Part shown: positions 6,885 to 11,187 of the stretch, one piece after another
Numbering within the stretch: position 1 is the stretch's first letter
Layout of the letters: every line of letters starts with the position of its first letter
Source of the DNA: a virus
Virus record (IMG/VR): IMGVR_UViG_3300035152_000026
Coordinates: 1 to 22,001 of that record
DNA length: 22,001 nt
Strand: one strand, 5' to 3'
The notes under the pieces: model-generated
The model's database searches: none
The model's input: the letters and a program-made list of their open reading frames with translations, nothing else
Told to the model about the DNA's origin: nothing
Translations under genes and position numbers: made by a program

Positions 6885-7165
6885 AGCTTGCAAGATGGTA
6901 CGAGATCTGACCATTGGCCTGCTTGTTGACGGAGCTTGTTGAGCTTCTCGCAGTACCTGTCACGTGCCCTGTCCACGAGCGTATCAGCTCGAATCTCGAC
7001 ACGTCGTATCGCAGTCGATCGAGCTGCTTGTTCCACGTCTGCGCTGCCGTAGCGTGCAAAAGCCTCTTTGCGTGCTTTGGCACGAAGTCGTGCAGCCTTC
7101 GTCAGGGAGGATTTGTAGGCACGGCGTGCTCGGTGTACAGCGTCCAGTACCTCTTTGTCAGTCAT
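6881..7165 (-). CDS. basic, probably helical hypothetical protein (94 aa)
   Basis: ATGA overlap with the stop of the upstream gene at 7162-7165. Arg/Lys/Ala-rich. Confidence 0.45.
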   Translation of the reverse strand: MTDKEVLDAVHRARRAYKSSLTKAARLRAKARKEAFARYGSADVEQAARSTAIRRVEIRADTLVDRARDRYCEKLNKLRQQAGQWSDLVPSCKL

Positions 7166-7891
7166 CGTGATCCTCTTCGTATGTATCGTGGGCTCGCAAG
7201 AACCTTTCCTCTCAGGTGAGGCTGCAACTCATAGACGTGTTCTATACCTGACGAGGTGTGAAAAACGATCGGTGTACCGTCTGGATAATGCGACTTGTAC
7301 CAGCTGACGCTCCAATCGTTTGACATGAATTTGGCGTCTGCTCGCAGGTTGCCTTCCGATGGAAAACCACCGTACCAGAATTCACGAACGTTCTGCCAGC
7401 CACCTACAGCACGCGCGAACTCTGCGGGAGTAATATCTTCGGCGTGCTCAGTGATGTAATCGATGAGATCGAAGCCCGTCTCCTCGTAGGCTTGTTTAGT
7501 ATGTTCCGGCGGTGGCGACGGACAGTGCCAAGCGAAAGTGTATGCGCCGGGCGTCAACTTCTGTGAACCCGCGGCGTGCAGCCCGTTGTTGATCTTGCAT
7601 GCGCGACGACCCCAGTTGCGAAGCGACACGTCGATCTTCTCAGTGCAGCCGTGCTTCTTCCTCATGCCGTCCATACGCTTGTTGAACGCGACGACGCGCT
7701 TGGCGAACTTGCAGTCGGCTGCCGTCCACTTGCTCGTGGGCTTCGCTTTGAGCTTGGCGAGCTGCGGCAGCCGAGCGCGTGTCGAAGCGAAGCTCGCTTT
7801 CTTCGAGCGCGGATTCTTGTGCCACTTGCGGATTTCCGCCGGTGACATGTTGACGAGCTTTCGGAAGTCGGCGGCGTACGGACAGTGCATG
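7162..7891 (-). CDS. hypothetical protein (about 243 aa)
   Basis: Track ORF 7162..7989. The ATG at 7891 (MHCPYAADF...) is preferred because the conserved leader TTATCCACAGGTGT and three direct repeats lie immediately upstream. No family recognised. Confidence 0.45.
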
Positions 7892-7905
7892 ACTCTCAGT
7901 CTACA

Positions 7906-7936
7906 CCTGTGGATAAGCTGTGGACAAGTTGTGGGT
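7906..7936 (-). promoter_or_regulatory. three helically phased (11-bp spacing) DnaA-box-like direct repeats: TGTGGATAA, TGTGGACAA, TGTGGGTAA (plus-strand reading)
   Basis: Box 1 at 7906-7914 is a perfect reverse-complement TTATCCACA. Boxes 2 and 3 at 7917-7925 and 7928-7936 each carry one mismatch. All three are in the same orientation, 17 nt upstream of the 7891 ATG. Confidence 0.45.
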
Positions 7937-8075
7937 AAGTTCGCGTACTCGTAACCGTGCTGAATTGAGTTGACAGCCGTACCCGGCATGACTACTGTCG
8001 CGTATTGCTAATGGCAACGTGGGTTACCCAAGAACATCTTTGGCTTCTCCGTTGATGGTGAGCAGGACATAACGA

Positions 8076-8150
8076 GGCGCAGCGGGGCGGGGCGCGGCGG
8101 GGCGTGGCGGGGCGTGGCACGGCGAAGTAAGGCAAGGGCGCGTATGCGCA
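8076..8150 (+). repeat. GGCNN pentanucleotide tandem array (about 12 copies, 8076-8135) + conserved box GGGCGCGTATGCGCA (8136-8150): unit A
   Basis: Read directly from the sequence: ggcgc ggcgg ggcgt ggcgg ggcgt ggcac ggcga agtaa ggcaa | gggcgcgtatgcgca. The ATG of 8164 lies 13 nt downstream. Confidence 0.9.
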
Positions 8151-8163
8151 AAAGAGAGACGAA

Positions 8164-8652
8164 ATGGACACAATCGACAAACGAATACGGCACGACGCGA
8201 TCTTTCTCCGGCTTCGAGAGAACCTGTTGTTGAAGGTGAAGCGAGGCGATCTACTCACCTACGAAGAATGCGAGAAGCATCTCGATGGCGACAGCTTTGA
8301 GATTTACCGCCAGCGCGTCAAACGCCACTTTGCCCGTCAAGGAATCGACCTCATTCCCGTGCCAGGTATGGGCTATCGTCTCGCGACGCCGGAACAGCAG
8401 CTCCATGAAACCGGGCCGCTCCACATGCGCAAGGCCATTCGCCAAGGGTCGATGGCGCTGCGAAGCCACGTGACGACACCCGACACGGACTTGAGCACGA
8501 CTGACAAAGCACATCGACAACACGCTATCGAGCGACTGGCCGGAACGTTGGCGAGAGCGAAAGACGACGAGATTCAGCTGTCCCGGAAACTCAAACCAAC
8601 AAACGTGAAGGTTGACGTTCCTCGCTTGGGAAAGAAGCCGGACGAAATGTGA
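8164..8652 (+). CDS. hypothetical protein (162 aa)
   Basis: ATG ORF directly downstream of repeat unit A. Confidence 0.5.
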   Translation: MDTIDKRIRHDAIFLRLRENLLLKVKRGDLLTYEECEKHLDGDSFEIYRQRVKRHFARQGIDLIPVPGMGYRLATPEQQLHETGPLHMRKAIRQGSMALRSHVTTPDTDLSTTDKAHRQHAIERLAGTLARAKDDEIQLSRKLKPTNVKVDVPRLGKKPDEM

Positions 8653-8660
8653 GGAAGACT

Positions 8661-8953
8661 AGCGTGGCGGGGCCGGGCGCGGCATGGCGCGGCAAGGCGA
8701 GGCAGGGCAAGGCATGGCTAGGCAAGGCAAGGGCGCGTATGCGCACAACAGATTTGACAGGGCATGGCAAGCGCGGCGAGGCACGGCAGGGCCGGGCCTG
8801 GCGCGGCAGGGCGCGGCCAGGCTAGGTCTGGCACGGCGAGGTAAGGCAAGGGCGCGTATGCGCACAACAGACAGATTTAACAGAGCGTGGCAGGGCATGG
8901 CCAGGCCTGGCTAGGCAGGGCAGGGCACGGCAAGGCAAGGGCGCGTATGCGCA
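8661..8953 (+). repeat. three consecutive GGCNN-array + GGGCGCGTATGCGCA units (B1 8661-8745, B2 8761-8864, B3 8884-8953)
   Basis: B1 has 14 pentamers, B2 about 18 (with one 1-nt phase slip near 8770), B3 has 11. Each ends ...GG(C/T)AA GGCAA GGGCGCGTATGCGCACAACA. Only B3 is followed by a gene (AAGGAG Shine-Dalgarno site, then ATG 8970). Confidence 0.9.
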
Positions 8954-8969
8954 CAACAAGGAGCTAAAG

Positions 8970-9632
8970 ATGGCGAAGAAGGCGAAGAATCAAGTACCGA
9001 CGAGATCAGTTCTCTACAAAGTAACGATTCATGGCGTTACTCCGCTACTCATGCATCGAGATGCATTCGACGAAGTCGAGGTGCTGAGTGGAGGTAAAAA
9101 AGGTGACGATCGCACACCGTCCGACCGATGGAAGCAGTACCTGTACCTGGAGAACGGTCGAGTGGTCATGCCTGAAGCCAACATCAAAGCGGCGCTCGAA
9201 AAAGCCGGTGCCGCGATCTCGATCGGTGGCAAGCTCACACTCAAGCGACCGATTGTGGCAGGCTGTTTTTTCGATACGCCGTTTTTGCCGCTGCTCGTCG
9301 AAGACGAAGAGGTCACGATCGATACAATCGACGCGATCACCGGAGACTTCGAGCAACAGTGCGTCGGTGCAAGAGAAGCCGGCTTCTCTCTCGACATACA
9401 CCGGGTGAAGATCGGCGCGTCTCGTCATATTCGGGTGCGTCCCCGCTTCGACGTATGGACGTGTGTGGGCACGTGCGAAGTGATGATCCCAGAGGAGATC
9501 ACGTTTGATCGTCTCGCAGAGTGTTTCCGAATCGCAGGCAACAGCGCGGGGCTGTGTGACTGGCGGCCAGCGAGTCCGAAACGTGCCGGCAGCTTCGGCC
9601 GTTTCGAGTCTCGTGTTGAGCTGCTTAGCTAG
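8970..9632 (+). CDS. hypothetical protein (220 aa)
   Basis: ATG with an AAGGAG Shine-Dalgarno site 7 nt upstream, immediately after unit B3. No family recognised. Confidence 0.55.
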   Translation: MAKKAKNQVPTRSVLYKVTIHGVTPLLMHRDAFDEVEVLSGGKKGDDRTPSDRWKQYLYLENGRVVMPEANIKAALEKAGAAISIGGKLTLKRPIVAGCFFDTPFLPLLVEDEEVTIDTIDAITGDFEQQCVGAREAGFSLDIHRVKIGASRHIRVRPRFDVWTCVGTCEVMIPEEITFDRLAECFRIAGNSAGLCDWRPASPKRAGSFGRFESRVELLS

Positions 9633-9634
9633 AC

Positions 9635-9880
9635 GGTGTGGCGCGGCGGGGCACGGCAAGGCCGGGCCGGGCGCGGCATGGTACGGCCGGGCTAGGCGGG
9701 GCTAGGCTAGGCGGGGCGAGGCAAGGCAAGGGCGCGTATGCGCACAACACAACAGGTTCAACGAAGCGAAAGCAGGGCACGGCGTGACGTGGTGTGGCAT
9801 GGCCTGGCCCGGCGAGGCGCGGCGAGGCGCGGCGCGGCGGGGTCGGGCACGGCAAGGCAAGGCAAGGGCGCGTATGCGCA
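9635..9880 (+). repeat. two consecutive GGCNN-array + box units (C1 9635-9744, C2 9776-9880)
   Basis: C1 has 19 pentamers and starts 3 nt after the stop of 8970..9632. C2 has 18 pentamers. Both end GGCAAGGCAAGGGCGCGTATGCGCA. Confidence 0.9.
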
Positions 9881-9899
9881 ATAGAATTGAGTTGACCTA

Positions 9900-10049
9900 A
9901 TGGCGGCACGCACAGAATTGAAGATCGTTACGCTGCGCTTACGCAGTGCAGACATTCGCAAGGCCAAAGCCATCGCCAAACGAGACGGCTTGCCTTATCA
10001 AGTGCTCATCCGACAGTGGGTCGCTGAGAAAGTACGCGAGGAGCGGTAG
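9900..10049 (+). CDS. small ribbon-helix-helix (CopG/BrnA-antitoxin-like) DNA-binding protein, 49 aa. Not in the ORF track (<60 aa).
   Basis: Translation: MAARTELKIVTLRLRSADIRKAKAIAKRDGLPYQVLIRQWVAEKVREER. The beta-strand IVTLRL plus two helices, and a C-terminal GLPYQ.LI...V motif, are typical of RHH antitoxins. The ATG lies 19 nt after box C2. Confidence 0.45.
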   Translation: MAARTELKIVTLRLRSADIRKAKAIAKRDGLPYQVLIRQWVAEKVREER

Positions 10050-10128
10050 ATGATATTAGGCCTGTCGGGTTCCGAGGCATTGAGCCACGCCACGACCAAG
10101 AAAGCCACCGCTGTGTTACATTGAAGAC

Positions 10129-11187
10129 ATGCGCACAGGGTTAGCTCTCGGAATAGGCACTCTCGGTACGGCTGTCGCCGCGTTTGTCTGGGGTTATACG
10201 CGGCGGCGACGTAACCGGCTTGGCATGGTCGCGCCAGCATCGAGAACTTCGTCATACCCCATCAATCCGTGGACCGCTGAGGCAGACAAGAAGCGGCTAG
10301 CGCGGGCCTTCATGGACGTTCGCACGAAGCAGGTGCGCGACATCGTACCGCGTGGGCTACCACTGCCTGAACACGTCAAACCCTTCGCTGAGTACATGAC
10401 GCGTCGTGCTGGGAAGCCTGTCACGAACCGTGACATTGTGAAGGCCTATCTCATGACGATGGGGAGCATTCAACGCAGCGAGGTTAGTGCCGCAGCATTA
10501 CGTCCCGGATGGCCTACGCCGGAGGGACCCAAGAACGGGATGGTGCGGCCTGAGGATGCCGTGGGTCAACTCCTGTTTACACCAGCTGGTCAAGCCTATC
10601 TCAACGCGGCAGAACGCGGTCAGTACGACGAACGTGCTGCGGCGGCGCTCGCACGAGCGTTCCGTCGATACGGCCTAGCGAACCAATTCGAGAGCGCACT
10701 GCGGAACGCACCTGCTATTGCACGTCAAGGCAGTACGTTGCGCAAGAACCTTCGTCGGAACCGCAAAGACTGGTATCGGTTCGTCGATGATAGCTTGCCG
10801 GGTATCAGCTACTCGAAGGCGGGGTTCATCGCAGCGTTGCTCGGCCGTGGCGACATGGCTACGGCGGACAAACGTCAAATCAACTTCTGGACATGTCCTC
10901 CAGGGCAGTGGAACAAGGACAAGAGGGAGTGCGCATTCCCAGCGCTGTGGAAACGGCGCCGAAGTGGACAGCTAGTCCCAGGGCAATTCGAGGACGTAAA
11001 GAGCTTGATCGATCCGGTCTATCTCGAACGGCTGAATCAGCGTATGCGAGCACTCAAGGTGGACATGCCTGAACGCTACAAACCGTTCTACACACACCTG
11101 GCGCACCACACGTTCTGGGATGCCATCGACCGAACGAAGACGACGCACGCGGACGTCATCCGTGCGATGGAGTTGGCCGGCAGCTAG
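10129..11187 (+). CDS. hypothetical protein with N-terminal TM/signal-anchor (352 aa)
   Basis: ATG ORF. N-terminal hydrophobic LALGIGTLGTAVAAFVWGY followed by RRRRNR. No family recognised. Confidence 0.5.
   Translation: MRTGLALGIGTLGTAVAAFVWGYTRRRRNRLGMVAPASRTSSYPINPWTAEADKKRLARAFMDVRTKQVRDIVPRGLPLPEHVKPFAEYMTRRAGKPVTNRDIVKAYLMTMGSIQRSEVSAAALRPGWPTPEGPKNGMVRPEDAVGQLLFTPAGQAYLNAAERGQYDERAAAALARAFRRYGLANQFESALRNAPAIARQGSTLRKNLRRNRKDWYRFVDDSLPGISYSKAGFIAALLGRGDMATADKRQINFWTCPPGQWNKDKRECAFPALWKRRRSGQLVPGQFEDVKSLIDPVYLERLNQRMRALKVDMPERYKPFYTHLAHHTFWDAIDRTKTTHADVIRAMELAGS

What the first reader, a model, noticed from the sequence alone, without database searches (positions are those of the whole stretch)
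8076..9880. Six promoter-proximal modules made of same-strand (GGCNN)11-19 pentanucleotide arrays capped by a conserved 25-nt box
Read directly from the sequence. At three intergenic loci (8076-8150; 8661-8953; 9635-9880) there are six head-to-tail units. Each is a tandem array of 11-19 pentamers with invariant GGC and two free positions, always on the + strand, and always ends in GG(C/T)AA GGCAA GGGCGCGTATGCGCA, usually followed by CAACA. Three units are followed within 13-20 nt by an ATG (8164, 8970, 9900). The other three (B1, B2, C1) are followed by the next unit instead, so the module is not simply one promoter per gene. The box holds a GCGC-GTAT-GCGC mini inverted repeat. The period is 5, not 3, and the antisense ORFs through the arrays (PRRA/ARQG repeats in the track) are artefacts, so these are not coding repeats. 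They are not CRISPR either, since there are no spacers and the period is 5 nt. The arrays degenerate towards their 5' ends: the last two or three pentamers are always GGCAA while upstream copies vary. This is the signature of repeated slippage expansion from the box-proximal end. I do not recognise this architecture from any described promoter, iteron or repeat family. Candidate roles include a cooperative binding platform for a GGC-reading protein, or a phage or mobile-element promoter/enhancer family. Transcription-coupled structure is another possibility, since GG-N3 runs on the non-template strand can form two-tetrad G-quadruplexes and R-loops. Replication iterons are also possible, as a DnaA-box triplet lies about 140 bp upstream of unit A.
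Basis: seen in the sequence. Interest (0 to 1): 0.88.

Follow-up and report, generated by a model that had tools for sequence, protein, structure and literature searches.

The report
Phage VIPR guide-RNA arrays with RAMP gene
The six GGCNN arrays are real, but they are most likely guide-RNA genes (vrRNAs) of a phage VIPR system, a CRISPR-like RNA-guided DNA-binding system first described in two 2026 preprints, and its Cas7-like protein gene lies between the arrays.

Summary
Six exact copies of GGCAAGGGCGCGTATGCGCA lie on the + strand, and each is preceded by 11-19 in-register GGCNN pentamers. None is expected by chance.

The promoter, iteron and slippage interpretations are not supported. The gene between the arrays (8970-9632) folds as a Cas7/Csm3-like RAMP. 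Its family profile matches PDB chain 36pp_D, 'SUSP1 Vipr protein' (E 2e-16). It keeps the five residues that read the GGY motif in that structure.

Same-strand GGCNN arrays occur in 73 of 80 viral contigs encoding relatives, and also in Mycobacterium phage Philus. They flank the homologous gene. Where arrays end in a hairpin, the stem covaries.

This is the architecture of VIPR (bioRxiv 10.64898/2026.04.26.720920 and .720927). One Vipr protomer binds each GGY, and the variable NN dinucleotides pair with DNA while skipping every third base.

The locus is therefore a new, uncharacterised member of a recently described kind. I did not find its natural targets. Expression was not tested.

The parts
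7962..7974 (+). 13-nt direct repeat GAATTGAGTTGAC, left copy, upstream of the module. It contains a TTGAC -35-like hexamer. It may be a promoter or operator, or a cassette boundary.
   Evidence: Two exact copies in the window, 0.01 expected by chance.
8076..8150 (+). vrRNA A: 12 GGYNN repeats (8076-8135) plus the 3' tail GGGCGCGTATGCGCA (8136-8150).
8164..8652 (+). 162-aa gene, a candidate accessory gene (vap1-like).
   Evidence: BLASTP against SUSP1 vap1 gives E 7e-5 over 53 aa, including the G.GYR..P..Q motif. Weak homologues lie next to vipr in L017 and L021. No Pfam or PADLOC hit and only a marginal PHROGs hit (phrog_5926, E 0.0095). No other homologue in the large protein database.
8661..8750 (+). 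vrRNA B1: 14 repeats (8661-8730), then the tail box 8731-8745 and CAACA.
8770..8869 (+). vrRNA B2: 16 repeats (8770-8849), then the tail box 8850-8864 and CAACA.
8884..8958 (+). vrRNA B3: 11 repeats (8884-8938), then the tail box 8939-8953 and CAACA.
8970..9632 (+). vipr gene: 220-aa minimal RAMP (Cas7/Csm3-like) with motifs GDDRTP, HIRVRPRF and GLCDWRP.
   Evidence: AF2 model pLDDT 90.5. Foldseek against the PDB puts type VII Cas7 complexes and type III-A Csm complexes (Csm3-sized chains) at the top, E down to 7.5e-6. The family profile hits PDB 36pp_D 'SUSP1 Vipr protein', E 2.1e-16, and the SUSP1 ORF at 63.8 bits. The GGY-contact residues are conserved. It belongs to phrog_4652, function unknown.
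9635..9749 (+). vrRNA C1: 19 repeats (9635-9729), then the tail box 9730-9744 and CAACA.
9776..9880 (+). vrRNA C2: 18 repeats (9776-9865), then the tail box 9866-9880.
9884..9896 (+). 13-nt direct repeat GAATTGAGTTGAC, right copy, directly after the last vrRNA tail.
9900..10049 (+). 49-aa ribbon-helix-helix (CopG-like) gene directly downstream. It may be a second DNA-binding accessory or an unrelated early regulator. Membership in the system is uncertain.
   Evidence: Sub-threshold Pfam CopG_antitoxin hit, E 8e-4. Not conserved next to vipr in relatives.

Best explanation
The region 8076-9880 is a VIPR (Viral Interference Programmable Repeat) locus. It holds a vipr gene (8970-9632), a vap1-like gene (8164-8652) and six vrRNA genes. 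Each array would be transcribed with the operon strand into an RNA of roughly 75-115 nt, made of 11-19 GGYNN repeats and a conserved 3' tail (GG, then the GCGC-GUAU-GCGC hairpin, then A and often CAACA). By homology with the SUSP1 system, one Vipr protomer binds each repeat. [quoted passage not shown] The NN positions pair with double-stranded DNA whose recognition sequence skips every third base (NNxNNx...). This forms a gapped R-loop/triplex that blocks transcription. The hairpin tail would cap the 3' end of the filament. The six different NN series would be six guides, most probably against competing phages, prophages or satellites in the same host.

Shown here: the anatomy of the locus; the RAMP fold and sequence homology to the solved SUSP1 Vipr; conservation of the GGY-reading residues; the family-wide, strand-specific linkage of arrays to the gene; the tail hairpin.

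Inferred from the preprints, not tested here: transcription and processing of these arrays; RNP formation; DNA targeting; the biological role.
For: (1) Protein.
- The AF2 model has pLDDT 90.5.
- The listed Foldseek PDB hits (50 shown of 65 with E<=1e-3) are all chains of type VII Cas7 or type III-A Csm effector complexes.
- An HMM of 35 family members matches the SUSP1 195-aa ORF at 63.8 bits and PDB 36pp_D 'SUSP1 Vipr protein' at E 2.1e-16.
- SUSP1 residues H17, R138, D177, W178 and R179 contact G1, G2 and Y3 (10.64898/2026.04.26.720927). They align to H29, R157, D197, W198 and R199, which are invariant or nearly so in the family.

(2) RNA genes.
- There are six arrays of 11-19 GGYNN repeats, each with an identical 20-nt 3' end.
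- Same-strand arrays occur in 73 of 80 IMG/VR loci encoding relatives and in phage Philus, and none lies on the opposite strand.
- They lie directly up- and/or downstream of the gene.
- NN entropy is 3.85-3.9 of 4 bits at internal repeats.
- Of 204 array ends not followed by GGAAC-type punctuation, 134 are followed by a short hairpin, 101 of them starting right after 'GG'. Four of the five stem pairs covary.
- The SUSP1 locus fetched here shows the same layout with GGT-NN arrays.

(3) Literature. The preprints report small-RNA sequencing, co-purification, in-vitro binding, GFP silencing, phage defence and cryo-EM for homologous systems.

(4) Consistency checks.
- No guide matches its own 22-kb window under the 1-nt-skip rule, as the preprint reports for natural systems.
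- The array RNAs fold no better than shuffles, z -0.2 to -2.2, as expected for a protein-bound single strand.
- No CRISPR or cas hits appear among the window proteins scanned with Pfam or PADLOC.
Against: - No expression or binding data exist for this locus.
- No natural target was found for any of the six guides. This rests on exact 8-9-NN seeds in the IMG/VR, metagenome and GTDB collections plus full scoring on 3.1 Mb of fetched loci. All extensions were at the level of permuted guides or explicable by the seed.
- The tail is a minimal 4-bp hairpin, not the pseudoknot described for SUSP1.
- Two arrays (18 and 19 repeats) exceed the 9-16 range reported.
- The vap assignment rests on a weak pairwise match.
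- The window itself has no hallmark phage structural gene among the ORFs scanned.
- The covariation set was selected for pairing, so only the diversity of stems, not the percentage paired, counts as evidence.
Confidence: 0.88

Rival explanations
1. The arrays are DNA-level regulatory modules. Each array plus box would be a promoter, enhancer or iteron platform bound cooperatively by a DNA-binding protein, such as the RHH protein or DnaA, that controls the downstream gene or replication.
For: Three boxes lie 13-19 nt upstream of start codons. An 11-bp x3 DnaA-box-like repeat lies at 7908-7941. A TTGAC-containing 13-mer flanks the module. An RHH gene follows it.
Against: No sigma-70-like promoter lies in 7700-10300. 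Three units are followed by another unit rather than a gene. Every array found in the 82 sequences scanned is on the strand of the vipr gene. The tail stems covary while keeping their pairing, which is an RNA signature and not a protein-operator signature. The RHH gene is not conserved with the arrays, whereas the RAMP gene always is. Homologous arrays are shown to be ~100-nt RNAs bound by Vipr.
Confidence: 0.04
2. The RNA-protein filament forms as in VIPR, but in this clade its main role is in cis. Vipr coating of the polycistronic early transcript just upstream of the ribosome-binding sites of vap, vipr and the RHH gene would regulate their translation or stability (autoregulation). DNA targeting would be secondary or absent.
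For: Tails end 13-19 nt before three start codons. No DNA target was found for any guide.
Against: NN positions are at near-maximal entropy, as expected for guides, whereas a cis-acting platform needs no such variability. In relatives many arrays sit downstream of the last gene or head-to-tail. The GGY-reading residues are conserved, and the homologous SUSP1 system targets DNA. The target search here was shallow because it used exact seeds only.
Confidence: 0.06
3. The arrays are neutral microsatellite or slippage debris, or they are coding Gly/Ala/Arg-rich repeats.
For: The period-5 simple-sequence appearance. Some gene callers translate through the arrays: the Philus gp52 N-terminus, the P0005 C-terminus and the P0080 N-terminus.
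Against: Arrays are linked to one protein family across very distant phages, including hosts as different as Mycobacterium, Pseudomonas and E. coli. They are identical or nearly so in four other assemblies. GGY is fixed while NN is hypervariable. A 5-nt period cannot keep a reading frame. Other annotators leave the region unannotated.
Confidence: 0.02

Closest known systems
VIPR systems (Vipr protein plus vrRNA), described for type II systems of Escherichia phage SUSP1 and a Pseudomonas fulva prophage (bioRxiv 10.64898/2026.04.26.720920 and 10.64898/2026.04.26.720927)
   Same: A small single-RRM RAMP with G-loop and thumb. The GGY-contact residues H, R and D-W-R are conserved. Same-strand GGY/NN pentamer arrays lie in the intergenic regions flanking vipr. 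The arrays have a conserved 3' tail. A small vap1-like neighbouring gene is present. There are no cas genes or CRISPR array. No guide targets its own window. Sequence homology to the solved SUSP1 Vipr is significant.
   Different: Here Y is almost always C, whereas SUSP1 uses GGT. The tail is a 4-bp GCGC/GUAU hairpin plus CAACA rather than a hairpin with a pseudoknot. The vap-like gene precedes vipr. Arrays reach 18-19 repeats, against 9-16 reported, and vrRNA tails abut start codons. The type (I-VII) could not be assigned with the data available. Targets are unknown.
Class 1 CRISPR-Cas backbone proteins (Cas7 family: Csm3/Cmr4, type VII Cas7)
   Same: The fold (top Foldseek hits). According to the preprint, the same RNA-binding mode: RRM helix 1, G-loop and a thumb that flips bases, with one protomer per repeat of the guide.
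   Different: No CRISPR repeat-spacer array, no other cas genes and no adaptation module. The periodicity is 5 nt with three flipped, sequence-specific bases (GGY), not 6 nt with one flipped base. Pairing is noncontiguous. The system is phage-encoded.
TRAP (trp RNA-binding attenuation protein) binding 11 (G/U)AG triplets separated by 2-3 nt
   Same: A conserved triplet recurs every ~5 nt on RNA and is read by one subunit of a homo-oligomer per repeat. This comes from my own knowledge and was used only as an early lead.
   Different: An unrelated fold (a beta-sandwich ring). The spacers carry no information. TRAP acts by cis attenuation, not as a guide.
Omega repressor heptad arrays and plasmid iterons (RHH or Rep proteins on tandem short DNA repeats)
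   Same: Tandem short repeats near gene starts, with an RHH gene nearby. From my own knowledge.
   Different: Those act on duplex DNA, tolerate either orientation, and the repeat sequence itself is what is conserved. Here every array lies on the vipr strand, a covarying hairpin follows, and the linkage is to a RAMP gene and not to the RHH gene.

Membership tests
VIPR (Vipr + vrRNA) | A Vipr protein: a minimal RAMP with an RRM core, glycine-rich loop and thumb, homologous to characterised Vipr proteins | tested here: met
   AF2 pLDDT 90.5. Foldseek top hits are Cas7/Csm-complex chains. The family profile matches PDB 36pp_D 'SUSP1 Vipr protein' at E 2.1e-16 and the SUSP1 ORF at 63.8 bits.
VIPR (Vipr + vrRNA) | Residues that read G1, G2 and Y3 (SUSP1 H17, R138, D177, W178, R179) | tested here: met
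   They align to H29, R157, D197, W198 and R199. All are invariant or at least 90% conserved in 35 relatives. The Y3-pocket residues E71, M72 and C173 are not conserved (A70, N71, A193).
VIPR (Vipr + vrRNA) | Tandem YNNGG (GGY/NN) repeats with a conserved GGY and hypervariable NN, at least 4 and typically 9-16 units | tested here: met
   Six arrays of 11-19 units. NN entropy across relatives is 3.85-3.9 of 4 bits. GGC then GGT are the commonest triplets.
VIPR (Vipr + vrRNA) | An invariant, structured 3' tail after the repeat tract | tested here: met
   An identical 20-mer ends all six arrays. Hairpins follow array ends in relatives, and 4 of 5 stem pairs covary. The tail is simpler than the SUSP1 pseudoknot.
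VIPR (Vipr + vrRNA) | Arrays on the vipr strand in the intergenic regions flanking vipr; no CRISPR array or cas genes | tested here: met
   All arrays found in 75 of 82 sequences are on the + strand. No cas or defence hits with Pfam or PADLOC among the proteins scanned.
VIPR (Vipr + vrRNA) | An accessory vap gene next to vipr | tested here: inconclusive
   The 8164-8652 product against SUSP1 vap1 gives E 7e-5 and 25% identity over 53 aa. It has weak relatives next to vipr in L017 and L021 and no other homologues.
VIPR (Vipr + vrRNA) | vrRNAs are expressed as ~100-nt RNAs and co-purify with Vipr | not testable with these tools
   Shown only for SUSP1, P. fulva and type III and V systems in the preprint.
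VIPR (Vipr + vrRNA) | Guides match natural DNA targets under the 1-nt-skip rule (at least 80% NN match) and do not target self | tested here: inconclusive
   No self-target in the window: the best match is 18/24 (75%, guide A) across all fetched loci, none of the best 1-nt-skip matches lies in the window, and the other guides stay below 73%. No convincing target after seed scans of three collections and scoring of 3.1 Mb. Two guides, A and B3, exceed 80% only in seed-selected loci and only at chance-expected levels.
VIPR (Vipr + vrRNA) | A phage or prophage context | tested here: inconclusive
   Relatives occur in 80 IMG/VR contigs and in cultured phages Philus, LittleE, LESphi2 and SUSP1. In the window only PHROG-type hits were found (phrog_850, phrog_2169, phrog_4652), and no structural genes among the ORFs scanned.
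Class 1 CRISPR-Cas | A CRISPR repeat-spacer array and multiple cas genes (Cas5, Cas6, large subunit, Cas1/2) | tested here: not met
   Tandem-repeat scanning of the window lists nothing with a period above 25. No cas families were found with Pfam or PADLOC among the proteins scanned. Only the Cas7-like fold is shared.
Rfam-curated RNA families | A match to any covariance model | tested here: not met
   No match at E<=1 over the whole window.

The most novel reading that the evidence does not exclude
This GGC/hairpin-tail clade may differ functionally from the characterised type II systems. The module is bracketed by 13-nt direct repeats (7962 and 9884), which suggests a mobile vrRNA-vap-vipr cassette inserted between an early promoter and the RHH gene. 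Its vrRNA tails also sit 13-19 nt from three start codons, so filament assembly on the primary transcript could double as translational autoregulation of the operon. Relatives with 7-nt GGAACNN punctuation and no hairpin, and the ~50-repeat tract in Mycobacterium Cluster F-type phages, might be array or processing architectures not yet characterised experimentally.
Probability: 0.15. Interest if true: 0.55.

Novelty: new member of a known kind. Interest (0 to 1): 0.35.

Why it matters
VIPR is a newly reported way for RNA to specify DNA targets, through noncontiguous pairing by the NN positions of pentamer repeats. It has been proposed as an ancestor of CRISPR RAMP effectors.

This locus adds a well-resolved natural example. 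It has six guides, a minimal hairpin tail, GGC-only repeats and longer arrays than reported. The same module is linked here to cultured Mycobacterium and Pseudomonas phages, where the arrays are currently unannotated or mistranslated as protein.

For annotation, the practical lesson is that same-strand (GGYNN)n runs next to a ~200-aa protein with the motifs H..RPRF and CDWRP mark a VIPR locus. They are not promoters, microsatellites or Gly/Arg-rich ORFs.

It is no longer new as a class.

Tried and rejected
- Rfam over the whole window at E<=1: nothing. tRNA/tmRNA scan: none.
- Scan of IMG/VR for the box plus three pentamers: 0 hits, so this exact tail is specific to this phage lineage.
- Early lead from my own knowledge, a TRAP- or CsrA-like sponge RNA or nut/put-like antitermination hairpins. 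I dropped it once the RAMP fold and the SUSP1 homology appeared.
- Neighbour-gene clustering in 80 loci. Only vipr is universal. The clusters were contaminated by array-derived ORFs.
- Homologues of the 162-aa protein in the 5.8-billion-sequence database: only itself.
- Target search under the 1-nt-skip rule:
  - Full scoring of all six guides with 0-3-nt skips on the window and fetched loci.
  - Exact 8-NN seeds for C1, B2, C2, B1, B3 and A in IMG/VR.
  - A 9-NN seed for C1 in metagenome contigs and for B2 in GTDB genomes.
  - Extensions never exceeded what the seed plus chance explains. Guide A reached 21/24 in Gly/Ala/Val-rich stretches of 59-67% GC phages, and B3 reached 20/22 in a 40% GC contig. 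Both were judged chance.
- RNA folding of each unit. The arrays fold no better than shuffles, and only the small tail hairpin recurs.
- The afdb50 fold library was unavailable, so the preprint's UniProt seed proteins could not be matched directly.
- No supplementary tables of the preprint are held, so the type could not be assigned.
Full report

Yes. The 20-mer GGCAAGGGCGCGTATGCGCA occurs six times, always on the + strand, at 8131, 8726, 8845, 8934, 9725 and 9861. Allowing three mismatches finds the same six and nothing else, and 100 shuffles gave none. Walking back from each box in 5-nt steps gives in-register GGCNN arrays of 12, 14, 16, 11, 19 and 18 units. A simple detector (at least 6 in-phase GGC, one miss allowed) finds six arrays on the + strand, none on the - strand, and none in 200 shuffles of the window. 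The distances from box to ATG are 13, 16 and 19 nt.

GGC is not strictly invariant. GGT, AGC and GAC variants occur, and across relatives GGT is the commonest alternative. The motif is therefore GGY.

**2. What surrounds it?**

The arrays interleave with three + strand genes: 8164-8652 (162 aa), 8970-9632 (220 aa) and 9900-10049 (49 aa, a sub-threshold CopG/RHH match). Pfam and PADLOC give nothing for the first two. In PHROGs the 220-aa protein belongs to phrog_4652, function unknown.

A distant blastn of the region against cultured phages gave an unexpected result. Arrays B1/B2 aligned to Mycobacterium phages Philus, Saal, BobaPhett, Gorge and others. Philus carries a run of about 50 GGCNN pentamers. 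The gene directly downstream of that run is a homologue of the window's 220-aa protein: 27% identity in alignment A1, with a shared C-terminal motif, G.GDWRPS.PK...G.YGR in Philus. Its annotated N-terminus is simply the array translated.

**3. Family-wide linkage**

The 220-aa protein has at least 247 homologues, none with a Pfam domain. The conserved motifs are GDDRTP, H(V/I)RVRPRF and GLCDWRP.

I fetched 80 IMG/VR loci encoding relatives. Of these, 73 carry GGCNN arrays, as do Philus and the window (75 of 82 sequences scanned). Every array is on the strand of the gene, and arrays sit directly upstream and/or downstream of it. No other neighbouring gene is conserved.

Array ends fall into two classes:
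- GGC(A/G)A, then GG, then a short hairpin. The window's box, GG-GCGC-GTAT-GCGC-A, belongs to this class.
- A 7-nt GGAACNN punctuation followed at once by the next array.

Of 204 array ends not followed by GGAAC-type punctuation, 134 have a hairpin, and 101 of those start exactly after 'GG'. There are 69 distinct stem/loop combinations. In the 37 distinct tails with a 5-bp stem and a 3-nt loop, four of five pairs show double changes: 46 cells against 11.5 in shuffles. That set was chosen for pairing, so the diversity of stems counts as evidence but the percentage paired does not.

Strand specificity plus a covarying stem argue that the element works as RNA.

**4. What the protein is**

An AlphaFold2 model built on 35 relatives has mean pLDDT 90.5. 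Foldseek against the PDB returns 65 hits at E<=1e-3. The 50 listed are all chains of two kinds of effector complex: type VII Cas7 complexes (8yhe_J, E 7.5e-6) and type III-A Csm complexes (6xn3_F, TM 0.55; 6ifn; 9g9f), with Csm3-sized chains at the top. The arrays are therefore linked to a stand-alone Cas7-like RAMP, with no CRISPR array or other cas gene found among the window proteins scanned.

**5. It is already described**

[quoted passage not shown] These define VIPR systems:
- A small phage-encoded RAMP, Vipr.
- vrRNAs of 9-16 YNNGG (GGY/NN) repeats followed by an invariant structured 3' tail, encoded in the intergenic regions around vipr.
- Usually one accessory gene, vap.

According to the preprints, one Vipr protomer binds each repeat in a right-handed filament. 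It sequesters G1, G2 and Y3 and presents the NN dinucleotides. These pair with double-stranded DNA while skipping every third target base. The outcome is transcriptional silencing of competing phages, satellites or prophages.

**6. Membership tested, not assumed**

I fetched the SUSP1 genome (KT454805.2). Its locus on the - strand has the described layout: a 195-aa ORF, a 146-aa ORF, one GGT-NN array upstream and three downstream.

- The HMM of the window's family scores 63.8 bits on the SUSP1 195-aa protein.
- In a search of all PDB sequences the same profile hits 36pp_D, named 'SUSP1 Vipr protein', at E 2.1e-16 over nearly full length.
- The five residues reported to read GGY (H17, R138, D177, W178, R179) align to H29, R157, D197, W198 and R199. 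All are invariant or nearly invariant in the family.
- The 162-aa product resembles SUSP1 vap1 only weakly, with pairwise E 7e-5. That assignment is tentative.
- NN entropy is near-maximal at internal repeats and drops only in the last two repeats.
- The arrays are 100% identical in three other metagenome assemblies of the same phage and 99.95% identical (one mismatch, no length change) in a fourth. They are not unstable microsatellites.
- No sigma-70-like promoter lies in 7700-10300.
- The array RNAs fold no better than shuffles.

**7. What I could not establish**

- Expression and RNP formation for this locus.
- The VIPR type (I-VII). No supplementary tables are held and the afdb50 library was unavailable.
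- The natural targets. Under the 1-nt-skip rule no guide matches its own window, which agrees with the preprint's finding of no self-targets. Exact 8-9-NN seeds for all six guides in IMG/VR, plus one guide each in the metagenome and GTDB collections, produced only hits whose extensions were at chance level. Permuted guides scored as high. This search was shallow compared with the preprint's nhmmer approach, so absence of targets is not shown.

**8. Differences from the characterised systems**

- Y is almost always C.
- The tail is a 4-bp GCGC/GUAU hairpin plus CAACA, not a pseudoknot.
- The vap-like gene precedes vipr.
- Two arrays have 18-19 repeats.
- Tails abut three start codons.
- The whole module is bracketed by an exact 13-nt direct repeat at 7962 and 9884.

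These points are worth follow-up but do not change the classification.

**9. Verdict**

The promoter, iteron and slippage interpretations are rejected.

The locus is a new member of the recently described VIPR kind. I put 0.88 on that classification. The mechanism is inferred by homology to SUSP1. Interest is moderate to low (0.35) because the class is now published, although it remains a striking system and this clade has some uncharacterised features.

Noticed in passing
window 4718-6349 (+): A 543-aa protein with a TROVE (Ro60-like) domain (Pfam E 6e-10; phrog_850 'RNA-binding protein', E 1e-39), about 2 kb upstream of the VIPR module. Bacterial and phage Ro60 homologues usually pair with Y-RNA-like non-coding RNAs. 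Rfam and tRNA scans of the window found none.
   Followed up: partly
window 7908-7941: Three tandem 11-bp units, TGTGGATAAGC/TGTGGACAAGT/TGTGGGTAAGT. They resemble DnaA boxes and lie in the divergent intergenic region between the - strand gene 7162-7891 and the VIPR module. They could be operators of the early control region.
   Followed up: no
window 7962-7974 and 9884-9896: An exact 13-nt direct repeat, GAATTGAGTTGAC, brackets the whole vrRNA-vap-vipr module. Each copy is followed by CTAATGGC, after 31 nt for the left copy and immediately for the right. It may be a duplicated promoter or operator, or a cassette insertion scar.
   Followed up: partly
L001 (Mycobacterium phage Philus PP208935.1) 2480-2740; gene 52: The annotated CDS 52 starts inside a run of about 50 GGCNN pentamers (MAGMARHGAAWQ...). 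The true start is probably the MADNEKLITL methionine downstream. The array ends in a GGCTGG-GCAA-CCAGCC hairpin. Related Cluster F-type phages (Saal, SwagPigglett, James) leave the same region unannotated.
   Followed up: partly
proteins P0005 and P0080: Database gene calls read through arrays. P0005 has a C-terminal extension (...ARRGAARHGVAWHGEARRGMARRGEA...) and P0080 an N-terminal one (MAVDGIGPARHGTEWQGLG...). Both are translated GGCNN repeats.
   Followed up: no
L014 3474-3911 and 4668-4968; L002, L030, L037, L041: Many relatives lack the hairpin tail. Their successive arrays are separated only by a 7-nt GGAACNN punctuation, with up to 12 arrays in a row in L037 and L041. This may correspond to the 'staggered' arrays mentioned in the preprint, or to a different processing signal.
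   Followed up: partly
window 2924-3901 (+): A 325-aa protein with a peptidase C39 (bacteriocin-processing-type) domain (Pfam E 7e-13). This is unusual in what looks like a phage early region.
   Followed up: no
OQ594955.1 (Pseudomonas phage vB_Pae_LESphi2) 4900-5463; NC_042322.1 (Mycobacterium phage LittleE) 25304-25864: tblastn finds Vipr-family homologues (31% and 27% identity), annotated as hypothetical proteins, in these cultured phages. They would be convenient experimental systems.
   Followed up: no
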